Notes under the pieces: generated by a model
Seen by the model: only the letters and a program-made list of their open reading frames with translations
The model's database searches: none
What the model was told of the DNA's origin: nothing
Made by a program: the position numbers and the translations under genes
Virus record (IMG/VR): IMGVR_UViG_3300005973_000002
DNA: 64,000 nucleotides
DNA from: a virus
Taxonomy: Duplodnaviria; Caudoviricetes
Direction: 5' to 3' (one strand)
Shown here: one piece after another, positions 8,455-60,681 of the stretch
How positions within the stretch are numbered: position 1 is the first letter of the stretch
Layout: every line of letters starts with the position of its first letter

Positions 8455-11400
8455 AAATTCCTCTAATGAGTTGGTTAAGAACCATTAATCACTAAGAAGT
8501 TATTGACTTAACTTTTCGATTACGAAAACGCCTAAAAATATGAACCCGATGTAACCCCCGACTGACAGAATTATCAGCGGGAACATCCGCAACACCAGGA
8601 GAAACAGAGCTATATAACATATAGCACATGCCACCAAGGATGTAAACACGAAAAGGGTACTTGGTGAATATTTCCTCACGTGTCCCGCCGGGACACATTT
8701 CTGCCCCTCATTTAATAACTAGTTTCTAAAAACTTTGCGTACAAAAAGTCTCTTTTGAATTTTCGGTCAAAAAATATTCATGCCAATAAGCTTCGCCATT
8801 TTCATTAACAAAAGGAGTTACATCAAGCAATTTACGACCAAGCGTGTCAACAAAATAAAGCTTCTCACCAAGCAGTATCAGCCATGGGTTGTGTAAATCA
8901 TAGTAATTTATTGCTCGAAAATCTTCACTAGAAGGCTTGAGGTTGATGACCATGAAAAGCGTGTTGGAAAGTACCTTTTTTCCAACTTCATCTCTGTTGC
9001 ACGCCACTGGATATACCGTAGCAGTATTGCAGAACCTGAACAATTTCCCAGGTTTCATGATTACCCCATCAAAACTTACAAAAGATCGTCGTCATCATCA
9101 TCTAATGACTCTTCCGATTCAACGTTGACAGTGAGCCCCATATCTTCCAAATCAGAAATGAGCTGCTCTAAGTTTTCTTCATACTCGCCATCATCCATTT
9201 CATCATAATTGATTTCAGTTTGAACCATAAGCGACACTAGCATCTTTTTCATGAGTTTCTCCAAAGTTAAACAAATCTAAGAAATTGGTTATCAAGACTT
9301 GATATTGTACATTTGTTCGTATTTTTGTTTTTGTTCTTTGGTCATATCCTGGTATCTACGAACTGTCTTACCCCTGATGAACTTTCCATGATTTTCATTC
9401 CATCGAATGGAAGGCTCGTCGAAGGACCCAACGTAATACAACTTCTCAGACTCATCAAACTTAAACATAGTCTGATCAGAATTAAAACGACCAAAAATTT
9501 TAACAATTTTTATTTTCTTGTTTCCTTTTTGATGCTTGGTCTTGAATTTGATGCCAGCTCGCTTGAGCATTTCAGTGAATTGTTTAAAATCAGTCATGCT
9601 TAAAAAACAAAGTTAAGTGCTATAAATTTGGCTTGATCACCGAACCAAATAACTGGATGTTTGCCGTCTTTGATTGGCCAAGGAGTATTGTTTAGGTGTG
9701 TTCTAATCAGATCAAGTTCGGAACCATTGGCAACAACCATAATCTGCTCTGCATTCAGAATAAATTGCCCAGGGCCCGGTTCTTCCTTTTGTTTTTCAGT
9801 CTTTTTTGATTTAAGGATGTCAGCTCTAAATGGATTTTCTTCTCCCGCTTCCCAGGAGAAGGTAACGGCCTGATTAATTTCGTCTGTGGACATCTTTCTA
9901 TGAAAGCGTTTAAGTCTAAGTGCCGAATTAGGCCAAATTTGAACGGTGATGGTCATTAGCCCTTACCTTTGTTAGATGGCGACAATGCCAACAAACGAAA
10001 TTTTCTCATGTCTTTTCTGATTTTTTTAATCAATTTTTGAGTTCTCTTAGAAGGAGACTTGGTAAGAAATCCTCTGCCCCGAAACTTATCATAGTCTGGC
10101 AATCTGGTAAACTGTGTTGCAGTAATGTCAACCACTTCACCAGTTTTACGATGTTTTAAAAGCCAATGTATATCACCCTCATGTCTAAGAGTTCCAGGCT
10201 TCCACTCTGAACTATTGTTACAAAGATGATAAAAAGCTTCAGAAGCAACATAGCAGTGACCTTTCAGTTGATTTGATTCGCCTCTGTATTTGGGCTTTCT
10301 CAAATCATCTGAAAGGTTCTTTTTAATAAGCCTGATTATTGTTTCGTTTTTCACTTCTTTTTTGGAAAGAATTTGCTAAGTCGTCGCATCGTGCTTGCAA
10401 GTTGGCGCATTCTTCGACGACTATCATCATACCATTCACGATCCAGTCGCTCACGTTGGCCCATCTGCTTTACAACCTCATTGAGGAAATCGATTGTGTT
10501 GTGTACGTCTGTAGAAATGTCAATCCACTCTTGAGTAAACTGAACCTCTTTAGCAGTTTTTCGTTCTTTACGTCTCCTTTTCTCTATATCTTTAACAGTG
10601 ACACCCAGCTCTTCGGCCAATTCTTTCTTGCACCTATTGGCCCGCCTTCGCTGAATTTTCAGCAAGTTTTTGCGGTACCATTCAAGACAAAGTTGAAATT
10701 CATTTATTTGTTCAATATTCTCAAAATTAGTATATATTTGCTCGACCCTCGGTATAGAACGGCCATAAACTTTGTTGAGAATGTCTTCAGGAATTTCAGG
10801 GGGAGAACGCAACTGACGAATTTTTCGATTTGCGGGAGTGTCTGCAAGGTCGTTGGTGATTTCCAAATCAGGAAAATCCTCTTTCATCACTGACAAAACA
10901 TGGCGCTTATTAAAACTCCAAAGATTCAACTTTTCGTCAAACCCCCATTTCTGGGAAAAAACCATCCATTCATCTGGCGGATCATCCACATGGCGAATTA
11001 ATCGCCACGGACGTTCTTTGAGCTTTTTTCCAAAGCCTTGCCTGTGAGTTTCAGTCGGATGAAGCTTTAAAACGAAATCACCAACCCGCCGTTCAATATG
11101 TTTTCGATCTGGCCAAGGCGACCAAGGAAGTTCACCAAATTCAGGTCTTGGATTGAGTCTGCAATCTAGGTCATCAAGATTATATGGAATGTGAAATGCA
11201 AAAGTTCTTCCCTCACGGAAGTGAGGCACTTCTACCAATTCTTCTTTGTAGTGTGACACATATCCCCCTAGAGGTTAGGGTTTATTGCTTAGGTTTCGGA
11301 CAAAGTATAGCATGAACCTGATCGCCTTCGAACCCATTGGGCAATTTATCAACATCGTTCTTATCTTCGAGATATATTTCCCAGCAAAATACACCATTTG

Positions 11401-32770: not shown

Positions 32771-33196
32771 CTAAGCAACATATACTAAACCATAATATTT
32801 GCCGACAGTTCTCTTGAACTTCCATTCGCCAAGCAAAACTCCATAAGTGCAGGCAGACTTTTGAAGAGCATGGAGAAAATCGGAATCACGAATATAAAAC
32901 AACTGTTTCGTTTCTGTATGTTCCAGAATTAACTGAGTGGTGGAATTGCAACTAATAAATCGTTCAACTTTGAAAGCGGCTTTGAATGGAGAATTATCTT
33001 TCCAGGTGACATTTAGATTATTATATCTTTTTCTGTTGACATAGTCAAAGTAACTAACGACGGAAACGTTCTTACCGCACGTCCACGGGACTCCCTTTTG
33101 GGTCCATGGGATTTGATAATCTTCACTTTTTTTATTCATTTGTTTCGAGCTGCCCCCTAACCATCCTATCTTTTCGACCTTTATATTTTCGGTCAT
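32771..33196 (-). CDS. Hypothetical protein, W-K-x-N-x-PFKA family (copy 1 of 3)
   Basis: WKDNSPFKAAF...GEWKF is shared with 36627-37019 and 37012-37422. Confidence 0.7.
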   Translation of the reverse strand: MTENIKVEKIGWLGGSSKQMNKKSEDYQIPWTQKGVPWTCGKNVSVVSYFDYVNRKRYNNLNVTWKDNSPFKAAFKVERFISCNSTTQLILEHTETKQLFYIRDSDFLHALQKSACTYGVLLGEWKFKRTVGKYYGLVYVA

Positions 33197-34022
33197 AGGA
33201 TTCTAACTGACGCAAATCCAAATTTGCATCCTTGCTTTTCATTGTTCCACCGCTCAGAAACAATTCAATCATTCTATCCTTTGTAAGAATTTTGGTTGTT
33301 TTGTCATCTTTCGAGGGACCCCATCCAAGCCTTGCCAAGAAATTAAGCATTGCATCAGGATCATATCCACTGTCAATATACAATTGAAATGTTGAAGCTT
33401 GTTCTCTTTTTGAGAGTTTTTTTCCCTGATGACGCAAAAGTCCAACGTGACTATATTTTGGCAAAACGCCGCCAAGGAGGTCATACAACAAAACCTGCTT
33501 TGCTGTATTTGTAATGTGGTCCACGCCTCGAATTATATGATTGATGTCCATTTCAATATCATCAACTACAGAAGCAAAATGATAAGTGGGACTACCGTCA
33601 GATTTGATCAATGTTAGATTATCAAACCCCCGAACATTGTCCGCCCGAATGGGAATGTTGCCAGCAATATCATCAACCCAATAACTTCTGGAAAGAAAAT
33701 CACCAACAAGATTTAAATGAACTCGCTTACCATCTCGAACGGCTTTGCCACTGTCTACCAGAAACGACACGGCAGCATCATAATGCTCCATTCTTTTACT
33801 CTGGTAGTCTAAACCATCCCAATCAAGCCCAAGCCACTCAAGGCTTTTCAAAAATTGGTCAGCCCATCTCTGCTCTGACCTTTCAAGATCGGTGTCATCA
33901 ATCCTAACAAAAAACTTACCACCAGAAGCTCTGGCGGCAAGCCAATTGAAATAAGCAGTTCTCATTGTACCCAAATGAGTAGGGCCTGTAGGTGAAGGTG
34001 CGATTCTAGTAAAAAACTTCAT
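33132..34022 (-). CDS. GluRS/GluQ-RS-like class I catalytic domain lacking the anticodon-binding domain
   Basis: TRIAPSPTGPTHLG (HIGH), RIDDTDLERS, PTYHFASVVDD, HIIRGVDH, KKLSKR (KMSKS), LNFLARLGW. It ends at about 296 aa, where the anticodon domain would begin. Confidence 0.9.
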   Translation of the reverse strand: MKFFTRIAPSPTGPTHLGTMRTAYFNWLAARASGGKFFVRIDDTDLERSEQRWADQFLKSLEWLGLDWDGLDYQSKRMEHYDAAVSFLVDSGKAVRDGKRVHLNLVGDFLSRSYWVDDIAGNIPIRADNVRGFDNLTLIKSDGSPTYHFASVVDDIEMDINHIIRGVDHITNTAKQVLLYDLLGGVLPKYSHVGLLRHQGKKLSKREQASTFQLYIDSGYDPDAMLNFLARLGWGPSKDDKTTKILTKDRMIELFLSGGTMKSKDANLDLRQLESYDRKYKGRKDRMVRGQLETNE

Positions 34023-35308
34023 ATTGCGCCACTTTGTCCAAAAAATGTCCAAGCTACATTTTCCCCGGAGAGTTTTGGTTCGCCTTCGTCGAAGGTATTT
34101 CTAATAGGCAACTCATGAACCTCTGCTACAACAGAGCAATGAATGGCTTGTGCATGATCAATAGCTACATCTAGACTATCACAAGGCCCTTGAAAATTTA
34201 AACCTTCGTAAGTATGCTCAAATACAAGGCAAAATAACATTATACCATCTTCAGATGGCAGAAATCTTCTTCTGTCATCCAGCATTCTCTGTCCTTAAAA
34301 AGGACCGTTGCTCCCAAATAATCATTTGGAAAATATATTTTTCCCCACTTGCCATACTTTTGGCCAACATACTTTGGAGAGTTGCAACTGTTTTTGATGG
34401 CCAAAACATACCATATCATTTTGAAAGATCAACAGGAATGCGAACCTTACGGAGATAGTCAGCAATTTGCTGAATGGCGTGTTCAACAACGCCTTCGGAC
34501 GGATTTGTGATCATATCCATCCTGAAGTGTTCTCCTGGGCCCTGAACACCCCAACTGCAAAGCATGAAAACATCATCGTCTTCCATAACGAATGAAATTC
34601 TACCGTGATTGGACTGCGGAAAATCAAATCCTTGATAGTAGACGATCATCTCTCCCTCGCCAATTTCAACATCACTATATTGCCTTGTTTCAGCAACACA
34701 TGAATATGTCCAAGAAAGACCTTGGCGGGCAAGATGTTTACATGCGATACCAATATATTCACATGTTTTATTATGATTCACGTTTTTCTCCAAACAACTG
34801 ATCATAATAAACAAACCCAATGAGTTCTTGTTTATCCTTTTCAAATTTGCCGCAATCCTGTTCCCATTTTTCCTTTAGCTCAATGTAATCTTCGTAAGCT
34901 TTATCTGATCGACCAGTAGGACCATAATGCAAATTTGGGACTTTTCCTTCATTATTATCTTTAAGTTTTTTATTTATAATACCTCTGCCGTTGAAGGGGA
35001 AATAATCTGTATGCAGCCCCATGTGCCCTTGCCATAAAGCATGTGTAGTAATTAAGCGAATTTTATCATCGTCTGTCAGTTTATAGACGTTGTATTTACG
35101 ATACCAGCCAAAATCATATTCTGTATCAATATCATCAGGGTCTTCGGCTACTGATACAAATTCTTCAAGCAAATCAAAATAGCATATTTCATTTTCATGT
35201 AACAAAACTCCACTAAGTGGTCCATCCCAATAATCCAAATGCCAGAGAATTTGCACGTTTTCAAGTTGTTTCATTTTTTTTGCTTTCCAATTTGTTTCAT
35301 CTTTTTAG

Positions 35309-35383
35309 CGAGACCTGTGGGATTTGAACCCACATCACTCCGGGTTAAAGCCGGCCGCATTACCAATTTTCTGCCAAGGTCCC
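35309..35383 (-). tRNA. tRNA with anticodon TTA (ochre-suppressor type; Gln/Glu-like loop)
   Basis: GGGACCT/AGGTCTC acceptor, G73, anticodon stem CCGG/CCGG, loop CT-TTA-AC (anticodon 35346-35348), T arm GTGGG-TTCAAAT-CCCAC. Confidence 0.85.
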
Positions 35384-35387
35384 ATTT

Positions 35388-35637
35388 GTGGCCGCCCCAG
35401 GAGTCGAACCTGGCTGTCCCACGACTGACGACCAAACTGTCCTATCTGCTTTGACGGGTCCTTCCCCCGTTTCTATGGCCACTTGAACTAACAACATTTC
35501 ATAATCTCATGGAAGCCACACACTTCCAGCAGGAATTGAACCTGCGCCGGGAACACTTGCCACTGTCGCCGAGCCAACTACTAGTTGTTATGTACGTCAT
35601 ATCGCCGTGCGGCAAAAACAGATAGGAACAGAACTTG
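35388..35637 (-). ncRNA. Unidentified structured RNA with two T-loop hairpins (YrlA/tRNA-like modules)
   Basis: A long-range helix of about 20 bp (35613-35637 with 35433-35453); GCAGG-TTCAATT-CCTGC stacked on TGGAAGT/GCTTCCA; CCAGG-TTCGACT-CCTGG; GTGGCC/GGCCAC. Confidence 0.6.
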
Positions 35638-35641
35638 TATG

Positions 35642-35998
35642 CTAACTTGTTATTTTTTTGTAACCCCTTCCTGCTACTTTCAAGTTTGCGCAAAGTTTAG
35701 CAGTTGCTTCACTTGGCTCGATTGTCAAGGCTGTGTACTGATTGATATCAGGCTCATAGAAAAGTGAATGCCTTAGTCCCTGGCTTTCGGTCAAGCAAAC
35801 AAATGCCTTCAATGCCGCTTCGTTTTTAACTCCCAAAACTACAATGGTGTTTGAATTAGTATACCACTTTCGCTCCTCTTCGGGGAAGTCGTGTGTAAAC
35901 TGATCCTTGGCATGAATGCTTTGTGCGATTTGATAGCCAGGCGAAATGTCCTGGCGAACCAATACATACATTTTCATTGTTGGTTGACTTTGCATCAT
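35642..35998 (-). CDS. Peptidyl-tRNA hydrolase 2 (PTH2)-like protein
   Basis: KMYVLVRQDISPGYQIAQSIHA, TIVVLGV, FYEPD, TALTIEP, LCANL. Confidence 0.75.
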   Translation of the reverse strand: MMQSQPTMKMYVLVRQDISPGYQIAQSIHAKDQFTHDFPEEERKWYTNSNTIVVLGVKNEAALKAFVCLTESQGLRHSLFYEPDINQYTALTIEPSEATAKLCANLKVAGRGYKKITS

Positions 35999-36456
35999 GC
36001 CACCTCACCGCTTTTATTGAGGATTTTAGTTACACGGCAAGAGACTTTAAATTTCTTAGGATTTTTCTCCCAACGAAAGATAACATTGTCGCCAGTCTTT
36101 AACCAATGAAGGATGTTGTCTTCATTGAACTCATTTTCAGACCAATAAACACGATAGCCGCCATAGATTATACAAATAGAAGCAATATTCCTAACAGCTT
36201 CATTGAGCTGCCAGTCATTAAAATAAAGTGACCTATTTGATTCAACGTCATCATACCGCTTACCCAACATTAGGGCATATGCTAGCTGGTGTAATCTCGA
36301 ATGCCAACCAAGAGATCGCTTTCTGTTCCACCCATAAGTTTTTCCTTCAAGGTGCTTAGAATTAATTTCTTTCTTTAGAATTCTACGAGACTCGTCGGTA
36401 AATCCATTAATAGCAGCTTTTAGCTTGTAAAGGTCTTTTTTCGTAAATGCCTTCAT
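35995..36456 (-). CDS. Conserved phage hypothetical protein heading the PTH2-like operon
   Basis: Strong SD (TTTAGGAGG) and the segment RSLGWHSRLHQLAYALMLGKRY; the stop overlaps the PTH2-like start. Confidence 0.7.
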   Translation of the reverse strand: MKAFTKKDLYKLKAAINGFTDESRRILKKEINSKHLEGKTYGWNRKRSLGWHSRLHQLAYALMLGKRYDDVESNRSLYFNDWQLNEAVRNIASICIIYGGYRVYWSENEFNEDNILHWLKTGDNVIFRWEKNPKKFKVSCRVTKILNKSGEVA

Positions 36457-36464
36457 TTTATCAT

Positions 36465-36564
36465 CCTCCTAAATTTGTTATAAAGTAACACACCAACTTT
36501 TTGGTAAAACAAAGTCGGTTTTAGGAGGTGGGCCTCGGTTATATATTTACCAGAAATGCAACAT
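36465..36564 (-). promoter_or_regulatory. Leader peptide / translational attenuator: MLHFW*IYNRGPPPK... overlapping an anti-SD three-way junction
   Basis: SD AGGA lies 7 nt before ATG 36564, with TAA at 36547-36549. Codons CCT CCT AAA (36520-36528) pair perfectly with TTTAGGAGG (36465-36473). P2 is ACCGACTTT/AAAGTTGGT and P3 is TGTTA/TAACA. Confidence 0.68.
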
Positions 36565-36626
36565 GATTATATCCTGTGCTTGTGAAAGGAAAATGTTTAA
36601 ATAAACACTTTCCAGCCAAGGTAGCG

Positions 36627-37019
36627 TTAGGCTAAGCAAACACTTAGGTATCGTCCTGATTTACGGAAAACCCATTCACCCACAAACACACCAGCAATAG
36701 CCGGCAGCGTTTTAAGTAGTTGAACAAAGTCTTCTTCCTTCATGACATATTCATAACCGTTTTCGGTATCATGAAGAACTGCTTGACAACTCGTACTCTG
36801 GTTTGAACTGTAAAGATGCGAAAGACTGAGCCCTGCCTTAAACGGCTTGTTTTCTTTCCATTCAATTGGTTCGGATTTGCGAATGTAGCCATACCCTCCA
36901 ATATTTGGATGCGCCATGTCGCAAGTTTCAGAATCTTTTTTGGGGCATTGACGTGGAACACATCCATGCTTTCCTACCACGTGAGGAACCAAAAAATTTT
37001 TATCGTCTTTTTCAGTCAT
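36627..37019 (-). CDS. Hypothetical protein, W-K-x-N-x-PFKA family (copy 2)
   Basis: EPIEWKENKPFKAGL...GEWVF; the start ATG overlaps the upstream TGA (ATGACTGA). Confidence 0.75.
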   Translation of the reverse strand: MTEKDDKNFLVPHVVGKHGCVPRQCPKKDSETCDMAHPNIGGYGYIRKSEPIEWKENKPFKAGLSLSHLYSSNQSTSCQAVLHDTENGYEYVMKEEDFVQLLKTLPAIAGVFVGEWVFRKSGRYLSVCLA

Positions 37020-37422
37020 TGTTAAATTCATTAGCCTTTTCGGCAGGAACTATTGAAAGAAAGCCACCATAACTATGAAAAACCCATTCGCCAAGACAAA
37101 CACCCATAATCCACGTTGTTTTATCCATCATTTCATTGAAAAGATCTTCGCCAACATAATAAGTGGCCTCTGTTTCCGTATTTCTCATCAAGAACTGAAC
37201 TGACGAACGTTTGTTTACAACCCTATCAAATCTCAGAGCGGCTTTGAACGGCTTATTTTTCCTCCACTCAATTGGCTCGCCATCGGCTCGTTTGTTGATG
37301 GTCCAATCGTATCTTCCAGGCCAATGTGTTTATTTTCGCTTGGGGCGTCGCCAAGGAACAGAACCATCTGGGTAAAATGGAATTTCATCCTCATAAGGAT
37401 TTTTGAGCTTTCTATTTGTCAT
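37012..37422 (-). CDS. Hypothetical protein, W-K-x-N-x-PFKA family (copy 3), with an in-frame TAA at 37330-37332
   Basis: MTNRK...RRPKRK*THWPG...EPIEWRKNKPFKAALRF...GEWVFH; 137 codons, matching the length of its paralogs. Not in the ORF track. Confidence 0.85.
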
Positions 37423-40818: not shown

Positions 40819-40829
40819 CTATTATTTAT

Positions 40830-41181
40830 TGGACCCGATCGGAATTGAACCGATGTCCTCAAGATCGCCTAAAAAAACTTCTACGTTACCTAGTTTGATT
40901 TTCAGATTACCGGTCCGAGGTATCAGACAACCAACCGGGTTCTTTCATTTGAAATCTTGATCAGACAGCCAATAGAAATCTAACTCTAGTCTAATCCAGT
41001 CCTAATAACGACGCCTTATAGAATGCAAGGACACTCAAGCTATAAGACGGCTCTCATCAAGCAGCGAGAGCAAGAGGTGCATTGTCTGCATTTATAATCG
41101 TTTATTGGATTTAAGTGGTTCTAAACACCCACCGTAACGCCATTTTTTCTTCTTACCCCAAGTCGAAACCAGTACGGGCCC
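40830..41181 (-). ncRNA. ssrA: tmRNA (352 nt), tag peptide ADNAPLALAA
   Basis: 5' GGGCCCGTACTGGTTTCGAC; acceptor with G3.U70; ATAAAT then GCA GAC AAT GCA CCT CTT GCT CTC GCT GCT TGA (41057-41089); 3' GGAC-ATCGG-TTCAATT-CCGAT-CGGGTCC-A. Confidence 0.95.
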
Positions 41182-56806: not shown

Positions 56807-56926
56807 CTCCAGAGGAGGGATTCGAACCCCCGACTAATCAGCTATCTTTGAAACCATCGGATTCGCATTGCAACAAGCTTTATCCGATTCCCACAACCGA
56901 TCGCTCTACCATTGAGCTACTCTAGA
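56807..56926 (-). tRNA. tRNA-Asn-type body with a 48-nt insertion in the anticodon loop
   Basis: TCTAGAG/CTCTGGA, G73, GCTC/GAGC D arm, ATCGG/CTGAT stem, GGGGG-TTCGAAT-CCCTC. The loop is 55 nt instead of 7. Confidence 0.82.
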
Positions 56927-59471: not shown

Positions 59472-59552
59472 ACAAAGAACTCGGATTCGAACCGAGAATA
59501 CCTTTACAGGCGGCGCAAGTTGCGAAGTGTATACCATTTCCACCATTCTTTG
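59472..59552 (-). tRNA. Type II tRNA-like RNA with a collapsed anticodon arm
   Basis: Perfect CAAAGAA/TTCTTTG acceptor, GGTGGAAATGGTATACAC D region, GCCT-GTAA-AGGT variable arm, CTCGG-TTCGAAT-CCGAG. The anticodon arm is only CGCA-ACT-TGCG. Confidence 0.7.
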
Positions 59553-60609: not shown

Positions 60610-60681
60610 TGGGTTGCCTGGGATTCAAACCCAGAACCAACATTTTAAGAGACTGTTGCACTACCATTGTAGTGACCACCC
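60610..60681 (-). pseudogene. Degenerate tRNA-Lys(CTT)
   Basis: Loop CT-CTT-AA; T-loop TTTGAAT (C56 lost); C at position 8; mismatches in the acceptor and anticodon stems. Confidence 0.65.

What the first reader, a model, noticed from the sequence alone, without database searches (positions are those of the whole stretch)
33132..37422. Candidate phage-encoded stop-codon read-through circuit
Seen within 4.3 kb on one strand, in transcription order: a gene with an in-frame TAA (37330); a leader peptide with TAA before an RGPP motif that overlaps an anti-SD helix (36465-36564); a conserved ORF; a PTH2-like protein; an unidentified structured RNA; a tRNA with anticodon UUA; and a GluRS without an anticodon-binding domain. 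Established: U34 ochre suppressors read UAA and UAG, and anticodon-domain-less synthetases cannot check the anticodon. Inference: an orthogonal synthetase/suppressor pair plus a read-through-gated attenuator could form a positive-feedback switch that turns on ribosome-rescue genes and restores stop-interrupted genes. I know of no description of this combination.
Basis: partly seen in the sequence, partly recalled or inferred. Interest (0 to 1): 0.92.

Follow-up and report, generated by a model that had tools for sequence, protein, structure and literature searches.

The report
Phage stop-codon read-through sensor module
A clade of very large phages from hypersaline lakes carries conserved tRNAs that read the stop codon UAA, next to a conserved leader that looks built to sense UAA read-through and then switch on a peptidyl-tRNA-hydrolase operon; this would be a new kind of natural translational sensor, not yet tested experimentally.

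Summary
All seven listed elements are real. The DNA is identical in at least 6 independent assemblies. The new result is comparative. Five related phage genomes keep one or two tRNAs with anticodon UUA, of three body types, with compensatory stem changes and an invariant anticodon loop.

Six diverged copies of the leader keep ATG-x-H/P-F-W-TAA followed in frame by R-G-P-P-P. The RGPPP codons change only synonymously. The Pro codons form an anti-SD that covaries with the SD of ORF153/PTH2. In 4 of 6 copies the read-through frame stays open up to the ORF153 ATG. RGPP is the strongest published arrest motif.

Best reading (about 0.5): tRNA-UUA reads the leader UAA, the ribosome stalls on RGPP, the SD is freed, and ORF153-PTH2 is translated.

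Weaker parts:
- The GluRS core belongs to a large huge-phage family that normally sits beside tRNA-Glu arrays. The UUA tRNAs are not Glu-like, so charging by it is unproven.
- Only one gene has an in-frame TAA, where three orthologues have Glu.
- The genome uses standard stops.
- The architecture does not show positive feedback.

The scan has noted UUA tRNAs in about 57 other genomes, but not this leader.

The parts
37012..37422 (-). Paralogue gene of 136 codons interrupted by an in-frame TAA at 37332-37330. There is no start codon for the conserved C-terminal 105 codons until 37191.
   Evidence: Orthologues in L011, L012 and L016 have Glu at the TAA position (GAA read in L011); L014 has Ser.
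36627..37031 (-). Intact adjacent paralogue (134 aa) of unknown function.
36547..36564 (-). Leader mini-ORF ATG-TTG-CAT-TTC-TGG-TAA (MLHFW-stop) with its own SD (AGGA) upstream. The TAA is invariant in 6 homologues.
36523..36546 (-). In-frame continuation I-Y-N-R-G-P-P-P. The RGPPP codons lie at 36537-36523. They vary only synonymously among homologues.
   Evidence: RGPP arrest motif: PMC12992588.
36520..36528 (-). Anti-SD CCTCCTAAA (second and third Pro codons plus the Lys codon).
   Evidence: 8-9 bp helix in all six leaders, with four compensatory variants.
36465..36473 (-). SD side of the helix, TTTAGGAGG, 8 nt upstream of the ORF153 ATG (36456).
35995..36456 (-). ORF153, a conserved basic helical protein of unknown function. 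Its stop overlaps the start of the PTH2-like gene.
35642..35998 (-). PTH2-like peptidyl-tRNA hydrolase homologue (118 aa), a divergent member.
35384..35634 (-). Clade-specific structured RNA. It has a long covarying closing helix, an internal T-arm-like hairpin and a 3' tRNA-like minihelix (about 35388-35432) that abuts the tRNA.
35308..35383 (-). tRNA with anticodon UUA (type A), anticodon loop CUUUAAC, G73, no encoded CCA.
34019..35274 (-). Three small ORFs of unknown function (167, 129-142 and 88 aa) between the tRNA and the synthetase gene. Relatives carry a second tRNA-UUA (type B) in this interval; the window does not.
33132..34022 (-). GluRS catalytic core (296 aa) with THLG (HIGH) and KLSKR (KMSKS) motifs and no anticodon-binding domain.
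40827..41181 (-). Context: phage tmRNA, 4.3 kb upstream on the same strand. Tag ADNAPLALAA ends TGA TGA.

Best explanation
This is a conserved translation-control module of a small clade of about 460-kb phages from hypersaline lakes.

The phages keep dedicated ochre-suppressor tRNAs (anticodon UUA). Upstream in the same gene string lies a leader that reports whether UAA is being read through. The leader starts with a 5-codon mini-ORF (MLHFW) ending in an invariant UAA.

Proposed mechanism (inferred):
1. If release factors win at the UAA, the ribosome leaves. The downstream CCUCCU anti-SD stays paired with the SD of ORF153, and ORF153 and PTH2 stay off.
2. If tRNA-UUA decodes the UAA, the ribosome continues in frame into I-Y-N-R-G-P-P-P.
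3. It arrests on RGPP, with the first Pro codon in the P site and the second in the A site.
4. The arrested ribosome covers the anti-SD, which consists of those Pro codons, so the SD is free.
5. ORF153 and the translationally coupled PTH2-like hydrolase are made. In most relatives a ribosome that escapes arrest would terminate on an ATGA overlap with the ORF153 start, which gives the same result by coupling.

Shown: the elements, their conservation, the helix covariation and the coding signature across the UAA. Inferred: read-through by tRNA-UUA, arrest, the regulatory output, and a role for PTH2 in clearing peptidyl-tRNA produced by read-through or arrest.

The GluRS core lies in a position where sister phages have tRNA-Glu arrays. 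It may charge the UUA tRNAs because it cannot read anticodons, but this is the least supported step (about 0.3). The TAA-interrupted paralogue is a plausible but single client of suppression.
For: tRNA-UUA:
- It is found in all five clade genomes with enough sequence: window, L010, L011/L012, L013, L014.
- There are three body types. Stems change in a compensatory way and the loop CUUUAA(A/C) is invariant.

Leader, six diverged copies:
- The TAA is invariant.
- Codons before and after it change mainly at third positions: TTG/TTA, TTC/TTT, CGA/AGA, GGC/GGT, CCA/CCC/CCG, CCT/CCA.
- The L020 insertion is 3 nt, and L014 and L017 differ from L011 and L016 in length by 3 nt.
- The anti-SD:SD helix is 8-9 bp with four compensatory variants.
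- The read-through frame is open up to an ATGA overlap in 4 of 6 copies. The chance of this is about 0.1 each under shuffling, and the other frames usually have 2-5 stops.
- RGPP/RAPP/RAGP occurs nowhere else in six-frame translations of the window or of seven related loci.

Published work: RGPP gives the most robust arrest, is EF-P-resistant, and works with short and varied N-terminal contexts (PMC12992588).

Synteny leader-ORF153-PTH2-RNA is kept in every relative.

GluRS core:
- The four UUA-linked cores form one clade (100/97 support), placed beside cores that sit directly downstream of tRNA-Glu arrays; that grouping itself has weak support (81/48).
- The interrupted gene has Glu in three orthologues where the window has TAA.
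Against: - There are no expression, aminoacylation or suppression data. No RNA run holds this DNA.
- Part of the RGPPP conservation could be RNA-level. CCNCCUCC is the anti-SD, and GAGG could be an anti-anti-SD. With only six related sequences the coding signature is suggestive, not decisive.
- The genome ends about 40% of its genes in TAA. There is no excess of back-up stops or same-frame fusions after TAA, so strong global suppression is not accommodated.
- Only one in-frame TAA was found in about 75 kb of clade DNA. It may be a simple nonsense mutation.
- The UUA tRNAs do not resemble the phage's own tRNA-Glu, Gln, Lys or Tyr. Type B is closest to tRNA-Arg(UCU/CCU) of sister phages.
- L014 and L017 lack a tRNA directly after the structured RNA.
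- The PTH2-like protein is divergent: NCBIfam equivalog scores are far below cut-off.
Confidence: 0.5

Rival explanations
1. The leader is an ordinary SD-sequestering attenuator with a 5-codon mini-ORF that always terminates at UAA. The apparent RGPPP peptide is a by-product of RNA constraints: the anti-SD CCNCCUCC plus a GAGG anti-anti-SD. The switch senses something else, such as termination speed, peptidyl-tRNA drop-off from a minigene, or tRNA-Trp supply. The UUA tRNAs act independently of it.
For: The anti-SD:SD helix is the best-supported feature. GAGG-YCCN-CCUC can form a small local hairpin whose variable bases lie in its loop. A mini-ORF ending in UAA-A upstream of a peptidyl-tRNA hydrolase gene recalls the drop-off-prone lambda bar minigenes (my own knowledge, not checked here).
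Against: This model does not explain several features:
- Spacing from the TAA to RGPPP changes only in multiples of 3.
- The two conserved C bases in the putative loop are codon positions 1-2.
- CGA changes to AGA, not to another base.
- The read-through frame is open in 4 of 6 leaders.
- The leader co-occurs with UAA-reading tRNAs.
Confidence: 0.25
2. The loop is a negative-feedback homeostat, not a positive switch. Read-through of the leader induces ORF153-PTH2, which hydrolyses the aminoacyl- or peptidyl-ester of the suppressor tRNA, or releases read-through and arrested products. This would hold suppression at a low set-point that the standard-code genome can tolerate.
For: The sensor output is a tRNA-ester hydrolase homologue, not the tRNA or the synthetase. 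The genome shows no adaptation to strong TAA suppression. ORF153 and PTH2 are always coupled, and the structured tRNA-like RNA always follows them.
Against: The substrate of the PTH2-like protein is unknown. The complex prediction for ORF153 and PTH2 gave no verdict. This model shares all the untested steps of the main model.
Confidence: 0.15
3. The UUA tRNAs are not translational suppressors. They could be decoys or substitutes that counter host anticodon nucleases, or leftovers of a fast-evolving tRNA cassette. The in-frame TAA would then be a plain nonsense mutation in a dispensable paralogue.
For: Standard-code jumbo phages with suppressor tRNAs and no identifiable targets are on record (PMC5852040, PMC6102473). 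Only one interrupted gene was found. tRNA bodies turn over between relatives: types A, B and C differ, and type A is absent after the RNA in L014 and L017.
Against: Three different tRNA bodies all keep the exact loop CUUUAA(A/C) while their stems covary. This points to selection on the anticodon itself. The conserved UAA-RGPPP leader in the same gene string provides a specific client.
Confidence: 0.1

Closest known systems
RAPP/RGPP-type regulatory arrest peptides (ApdA, ApdP, ApcA; SecM with RAGP) that control a downstream gene by exposing its SD
   Same: An R-G-P-P core lies in a small upstream ORF. The stall site sits on or next to a sequence that sequesters the SD of the downstream gene. 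RGPP is reported as the strongest, EF-P-resistant variant and works with short N-terminal contexts (PMC12992588, PMC10951233).
   Different: The motif lies behind an invariant in-frame UAA, so it can only be reached by stop-codon read-through. The nascent chain would be about 13 residues with no signal or membrane segment, so there is no force-release by a translocon. The regulated genes are ORF153 and a PTH2-like hydrolase in a phage, not Sec/YidC components.
Suppressor tRNAs of standard-code jumbo phages (XacN1 CUA, Atu_ph07 UCA) and of stop-recoded phages (code 15 or 4: Lak, crAss-like)
   Same: A phage-encoded tRNA reads a stop codon, in a large genome rich in translation genes.
   Different: The anticodon is UUA. 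A survey of 10,754 jumbo phage genomes found no TAA recoding (PMC13037316). This genome is not recoded. A candidate dedicated client, the leader, is conserved beside the tRNAs.
Classical E. coli ochre suppressors (supB Gln, supC Tyr, supG/L Lys) and allo-tRNA or Ser/Leu-bodied UUA tRNAs (PMC5389517)
   Same: Anticodon UUA on an otherwise normal cloverleaf.
   Different: The bodies are class I (5-nt variable loop) and unlike the phage's Gln, Lys, Tyr or Glu tRNAs. Their charging cannot rely on the anticodon-blind SerRS or LeuRS routes used by most natural UUA tRNAs.
GluQRS (YadB), the known GluRS paralogue without an anticodon-binding domain
   Same: About 300 aa, GluRS catalytic core only.
   Different: It scores much higher against bacterial GluRS (263 bits) than against GluQRS models (171 bits; cut-off 277). 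PDB comparison gives 190 bits for GluRS against 95 bits for YadB. Relatives sit beside tRNA-Glu arrays, not tRNA-Asp.
AMD1 read-through stalling in mammals (read-through ribosomes arrest downstream of the stop; my own knowledge, not checked here)
   Same: Ribosomes that read through a stop codon are arrested by a downstream in-frame element, which gives a regulatory effect.
   Different: That system is eukaryotic, has no dedicated suppressor tRNA, and represses the same mRNA. This one would open an SD for a downstream cistron.

Membership tests
RAPP/RGPP arrest-peptide leaders | R-(A/G)-P-P core encoded in a small ORF upstream of, and on the same strand as, the regulated gene | tested here: met
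   RGPPP is in frame with the mini-ORF in all six leaders, but only if the UAA is read through.
RAPP/RGPP arrest-peptide leaders | The stall site overlaps or abuts an RNA structure that occludes the downstream SD | tested here: met
   The Pro codons form the anti-SD. The helix is 8-9 bp with four compensatory variants.
RAPP/RGPP arrest-peptide leaders | Demonstrated ribosome arrest | not testable with these tools
   This needs toeprinting or a PURE-system assay.
RAPP/RGPP arrest-peptide leaders | N-terminal signal or membrane segment that releases the arrest (monitoring substrates) | tested here: not met
   The nascent chain would be about 13 residues with no hydrophobic segment.
Ochre suppressor tRNA | Canonical cloverleaf with a 7-nt anticodon loop and anticodon UUA | tested here: met
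   Shown by ARAGORN and Rfam. The loop CUUUAA(A/C) is kept in 3 body types with covarying stems.
Ochre suppressor tRNA | Aminoacylated and able to decode UAA in vivo | not testable with these tools
   No RNA runs hold this DNA.
Stop-codon-recoded phage (alternative code) | Many genes with in-frame copies of the recoded stop, and low coding density under code 11 | tested here: not met
   Coding is dense under code 11. TAA ends about 40% of genes. One in-frame TAA was found in about 75 kb.
Canonical bacterial GluRS (TIGR00464) | Catalytic Rossmann core with HIGH and KMSKS motifs | tested here: met
   THLG and KLSKR motifs are present. Pfam PF00749 E=6.5e-61.
Canonical bacterial GluRS (TIGR00464) | C-terminal anticodon-binding domain; score above the equivalog cut-off | tested here: not met
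   The match ends at model position 315 of 470. The score is 263, below the cut-off of 290.
GluQRS (YadB, TIGR03838) | Score above the equivalog cut-off | tested here: not met
   171 bits against a cut-off of 277. PDB YadB scores 95 bits against 190 for GluRS.
PTH2 peptidyl-tRNA hydrolase | Pfam PF01981 above the gathering score | tested here: met
   35.5 bits against a cut-off of 23.
PTH2 peptidyl-tRNA hydrolase | Equivalog-level similarity and catalytic residues | tested here: inconclusive
   NCBIfam gives 21-24 bits against cut-offs of 82-126. The PDB match is weak, E=0.46.
tmRNA or Y-RNA-like (YrlA) for the structured RNA | Match to the Rfam covariance model | tested here: not met
   Only a 12-bit tmRNA fragment hit was found, and no Y RNA family (YrlA) hit at E up to 10.

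The most novel reading that the evidence does not exclude
This would be a natural, phage-encoded genetic-code-expansion kit. An anticodon-blind GluRS core charges dedicated UUA tRNAs with glutamate. A UAA-gated RGPP arrest leader measures the resulting read-through and sets the level of a tRNA-ester hydrolase, and through polarity perhaps of the tRNA and the synthetase. The phage would thus run a controlled, partial reassignment of UAA in a standard-code host.
Probability: 0.15. Interest if true: 0.95.

Novelty: new variant of a known kind. Interest (0 to 1): 0.78.

Why it matters
Stop-codon suppression by phage tRNAs is widely seen, but in standard-code phages it has no known targets or control. 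A conserved leader that can only be completed by reading UAA, and that then stalls on the strongest known arrest motif to open a ribosome-binding site, would be two things. It would be the first natural sensor of suppressor activity. It would also give these tRNAs a concrete client. That makes an open question directly testable with simple reporters: what are suppressor tRNAs for in standard-code jumbo phages? It would also offer a compact part for synthetic biology, a read-through-responsive switch. The large family of anticodon-domain-less GluRS genes beside tRNA-Glu arrays in huge phages is a second, broader lead.

Tried and rejected
- Near-identity DNA search in the phage collection found no match.
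- Global recoding is rejected. All three stops are used, and there is no TAA-specific excess of back-up stops or same-frame gene fusions.
- The search for more interrupted genes found only 37332. The other tblastn stop hits were off-frame or upstream of starts.
- Origin of the UUA tRNAs: no convincing parent exists among 50 tRNAs of the same genome. Type B is closest to tRNA-Arg of sister phages. A tRNA-Glu origin is not supported.
- ORF153 function: there are no Pfam, NCBIfam or PHROG hits. The AlphaFold model is weak (pLDDT 64), and Foldseek and the Atlas gave nothing.
- The complex prediction for ORF153 and the PTH2-like protein gave no verdict. It is not evidence either way.
- Leader pattern scans of viral and metagenome collections found only the known relative (L013 = L153) plus chance matches.
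- The covariance model of the structured RNA matched only clade members, and there is no Rfam family.
- Public runs are DNA contigs only and show no variants.
- The tmRNA tag ends TGA TGA in the window and L012 but TAA in L014, so this is not a consistent adaptation.

Full report
**What is in the window.**
The window is dense with minus-strand genes under code 11. All three stop codons are used; in the greedy ORF set, minus-strand genes end in TGA 43 times, TAA 41 times and TAG 21 times. It carries several tRNAs and a tmRNA.

The same protein and DNA occur on contigs of up to 461 kb. A 10-kb stretch around the finding is 99.99-100% identical in six assemblies from different samples, and it is identical in contigs of four further runs labelled hypersaline lake metagenome. 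Walking upstream showed more than 40 further tRNA genes and other translation genes in the same genome. This is a huge phage with a standard code. The anticodon and the stop codons are not assembly errors.

**The seven elements.** All are present as described.
- The tRNA at 35308-35383(-) has loop CUUUAAC, anticodon UUA.
- The synthetase gene (33132-34022, 296 aa from its ATG) matches the class I Glu/Gln catalytic domain. It aligns to residues 1-~310 of 468-490-aa bacterial GluRS, carries THLG and KLSKR motifs, and lacks the anticodon-binding domain. It is closer to GluRS than to GluQRS/YadB.
- The 118-aa protein passes the Pfam PTH2 threshold but is divergent.
- ORF153 is conserved but has no family or fold match.
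- The 136-codon frame 37012-37422 has a TAA at 37332-37330, and no usable start follows for the conserved C-terminal part.

**Relatives.**
Exact-protein look-ups and protein searches gave five further phage genomes of the same clade, with GluRS-core identity of 60-83% (L010, L011/L012, L013, L014), plus short contigs (L016, L017, L019, L020). Synteny is kept: exonuclease, paralogue pair, leader, ORF153, PTH2, structured RNA, then the tRNA(s) and the GluRS core.

**The UUA tRNAs are under selection.**
Every clade genome with enough sequence has one or two tRNAs with anticodon UUA. They fall into three body types:
- type A lies directly after the structured RNA;
- types B and C lie near the GluRS core.

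Within types A and B the acceptor, anticodon and T stems show compensatory changes, while the loop CUUUAA(A/C) never changes. Three different bodies holding the same stop-reading anticodon is hard to explain except by selection on that anticodon.

**The leader.**
Six diverged copies were aligned. All read SD-ATG-x-(H/P)-F-W-TAA-(I/K)-(Y/F)-(N/S)-[I]-R-G-P-P-P.
- The TAA is invariant.
- In the five RGPPP codons every difference is synonymous: CGA/AGA, GGC/GGT, CCA/CCC/CCG, CCT/CCA.
- TTG/TTA, TTC/TTT, ATA/ATT and AAC/AAT are also synonymous.
- The one insertion between the TAA and the Arg codon is 3 nt.
- CCUCC plus the next 3-4 bases pairs with the SD of ORF153 over 8-9 bp. The extension covaries in four versions: TAAA/TTTA, TGTT/AATA, ATC/GAT and TCAT/ATGA.
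- In four of the six copies the read-through frame stays open for about 31 codons and ends in a TGA that overlaps the ORF153 ATG. Shuffled sequence does this about 10% of the time, and the other two frames usually hold 2-5 stops.
- RGPP, RAPP and RAGP occur nowhere else in six-frame translations of the window or of seven related loci.

Published work shows three relevant properties of RGPP (PMC12992588). It gives the most robust ribosome arrest among RAPP-like motifs. It resists EF-P. It tolerates short and varied N-terminal contexts.

**Mechanism proposed.**
A ribosome arrested on R-G-P with Pro in the A site would hold the anti-SD inside its mRNA channel, and that would free the SD. So read-through of the leader UAA, most simply by the co-encoded tRNA-UUA, would turn on ORF153 and the coupled PTH2-like hydrolase. 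Termination at UAA would leave them off. This reading is inferred, not shown.

The main rival is that RGPPP is a by-product of RNA constraints (anti-SD plus a GAGG anti-anti-SD) and that the mini-ORF always terminates. That rival does not explain the in-frame spacing, the conserved CC of the first Pro codon, the CGA/AGA change or the open frame.

**The GluRS core.**
It belongs to a very large family of about 285-300-aa proteins, many on 100-500-kb contigs. Among 80 IMG/VR loci, the closest relatives (L001, L021, L024, L029, L030) have arrays of 2-4 tRNA-Glu (UUC/CUC) immediately upstream, and none has a UUA tRNA.

In a maximum-likelihood tree the four UUA-linked cores form one clade (100/97). 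They sit next to the tRNA-Glu-linked cores, but that grouping has weak support. The UUA tRNAs therefore occupy the place of a tRNA-Glu partner. Because they are class I tRNAs, an anticodon-blind enzyme would solve their charging problem.

Several points count against this idea:
- The UUA tRNAs are not Glu-like.
- They resemble none of the phage's own Glu, Gln, Lys or Tyr tRNAs.
- Type B is closest to tRNA-Arg(UCU/CCU) of sister phages.
- The phage has a canonical tRNA-Glu that is the obvious substrate.

I put charging by the GluRS core at about 0.3.

**The interrupted gene.**
Orthologues in L011, L012 and L016 have Glu at the TAA position (GAA read in L011), and L014 has Ser. That fits Glu insertion. 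But GAA to TAA is also an ordinary nonsense change, the region is variable, and this is the only such case in about 75 kb of clade DNA. TAA-terminated genes show no excess of back-up stops or same-frame neighbours. Suppression, if real, must be partial. 'Restoring interrupted genes' is at most a minor role.

**The structured RNA.**
It follows PTH2 in every relative. It has a long closing helix with compensatory changes, a hairpin with a T-loop sequence, and, except in L014, a 3' tRNA-like minihelix whose stem also covaries. A covariance model finds it only in this clade, and Rfam has no family for it. Its role is unknown. The minihelix may serve as a processing signal between the RNA and the tRNA.

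**Sign of the loop.**
The leader gates translation of ORF153-PTH2 only. Positive feedback on the tRNA or synthetase would need transcriptional polarity, for which there is no evidence. A negative-feedback homeostat, in which the hydrolase limits charged suppressor, fits the standard-code genome at least as well.

**Novelty.**
Surveys report no TAA recoding in jumbo phages (PMC13037316). Standard-code jumbo phages with CUA or UCA suppressors have no identified targets. Searches of the literature found no description of a read-through-gated arrest leader, or of this gene combination. The scan itself has noted UUA tRNAs in about 57 other genomes, mostly Ser/Leu-bodied and mobile, but not this leader.

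Noticed in passing
L001:5515-5768, L021:5413-5752, L024:5759-5994, L029:5226-5481, L030:5572-5978: In sister huge phages the anticodon-domain-less GluRS gene sits directly downstream of arrays of 2-4 tRNA-Glu genes (UUC and CUC). Some of these have non-canonical bodies. This suggests a widespread phage tRNA-Glu/GluRS-core cassette.
   Followed up: partly
window 40827-41181 (-): The phage tmRNA has tag ADNAPLALAA ending in tandem TGA TGA here and in L012, but in a single TAA in L014.
   Followed up: partly
L010:397-470, L011:6135-6209, L014:14339-14412: The type B tRNA-UUA is most similar (0.72-0.76 identity) to tRNA-Arg(UCU/CCU) genes that lie near the GluRS core in sister phages. This hints that a tRNA-Arg body was converted to a stop reader.
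   Followed up: partly
window 35300-35310 (-) and the tRNA array in L103:1-10000: The tRNA-UUA is followed by CTAAAA instead of CCA.
   Followed up: no
window 56807-56926 (-), 60610-60681 (-), 59472-59552 (-): Rfam finds a 120-nt tRNA match (probably intron-bearing) and a marginal tRNA that ARAGORN misses. ARAGORN calls an odd tRNA-Ser with anticodon ACU.
   Followed up: no
L012:6866-7726: A GIY-YIG homing-endonuclease gene is inserted between the paralogue pair and the leader in L012, but not in the near-identical L011 or L013.
   Followed up: no
L101:812-2395 and 8671-9921; L103:1-10000: The same phage genome encodes an asparagine synthase, a class II AsnRS/AspRS-like synthetase, NAD kinase, methionine aminopeptidase and more than 40 tRNA genes just beyond the window's end.
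   Followed up: no
L014:8855-9062; L017:1440-1928: In L014 the structured RNA lacks the 3' minihelix, and no tRNA follows it. In L017 the minihelix is present, but no tRNA follows within the contig.
   Followed up: partly
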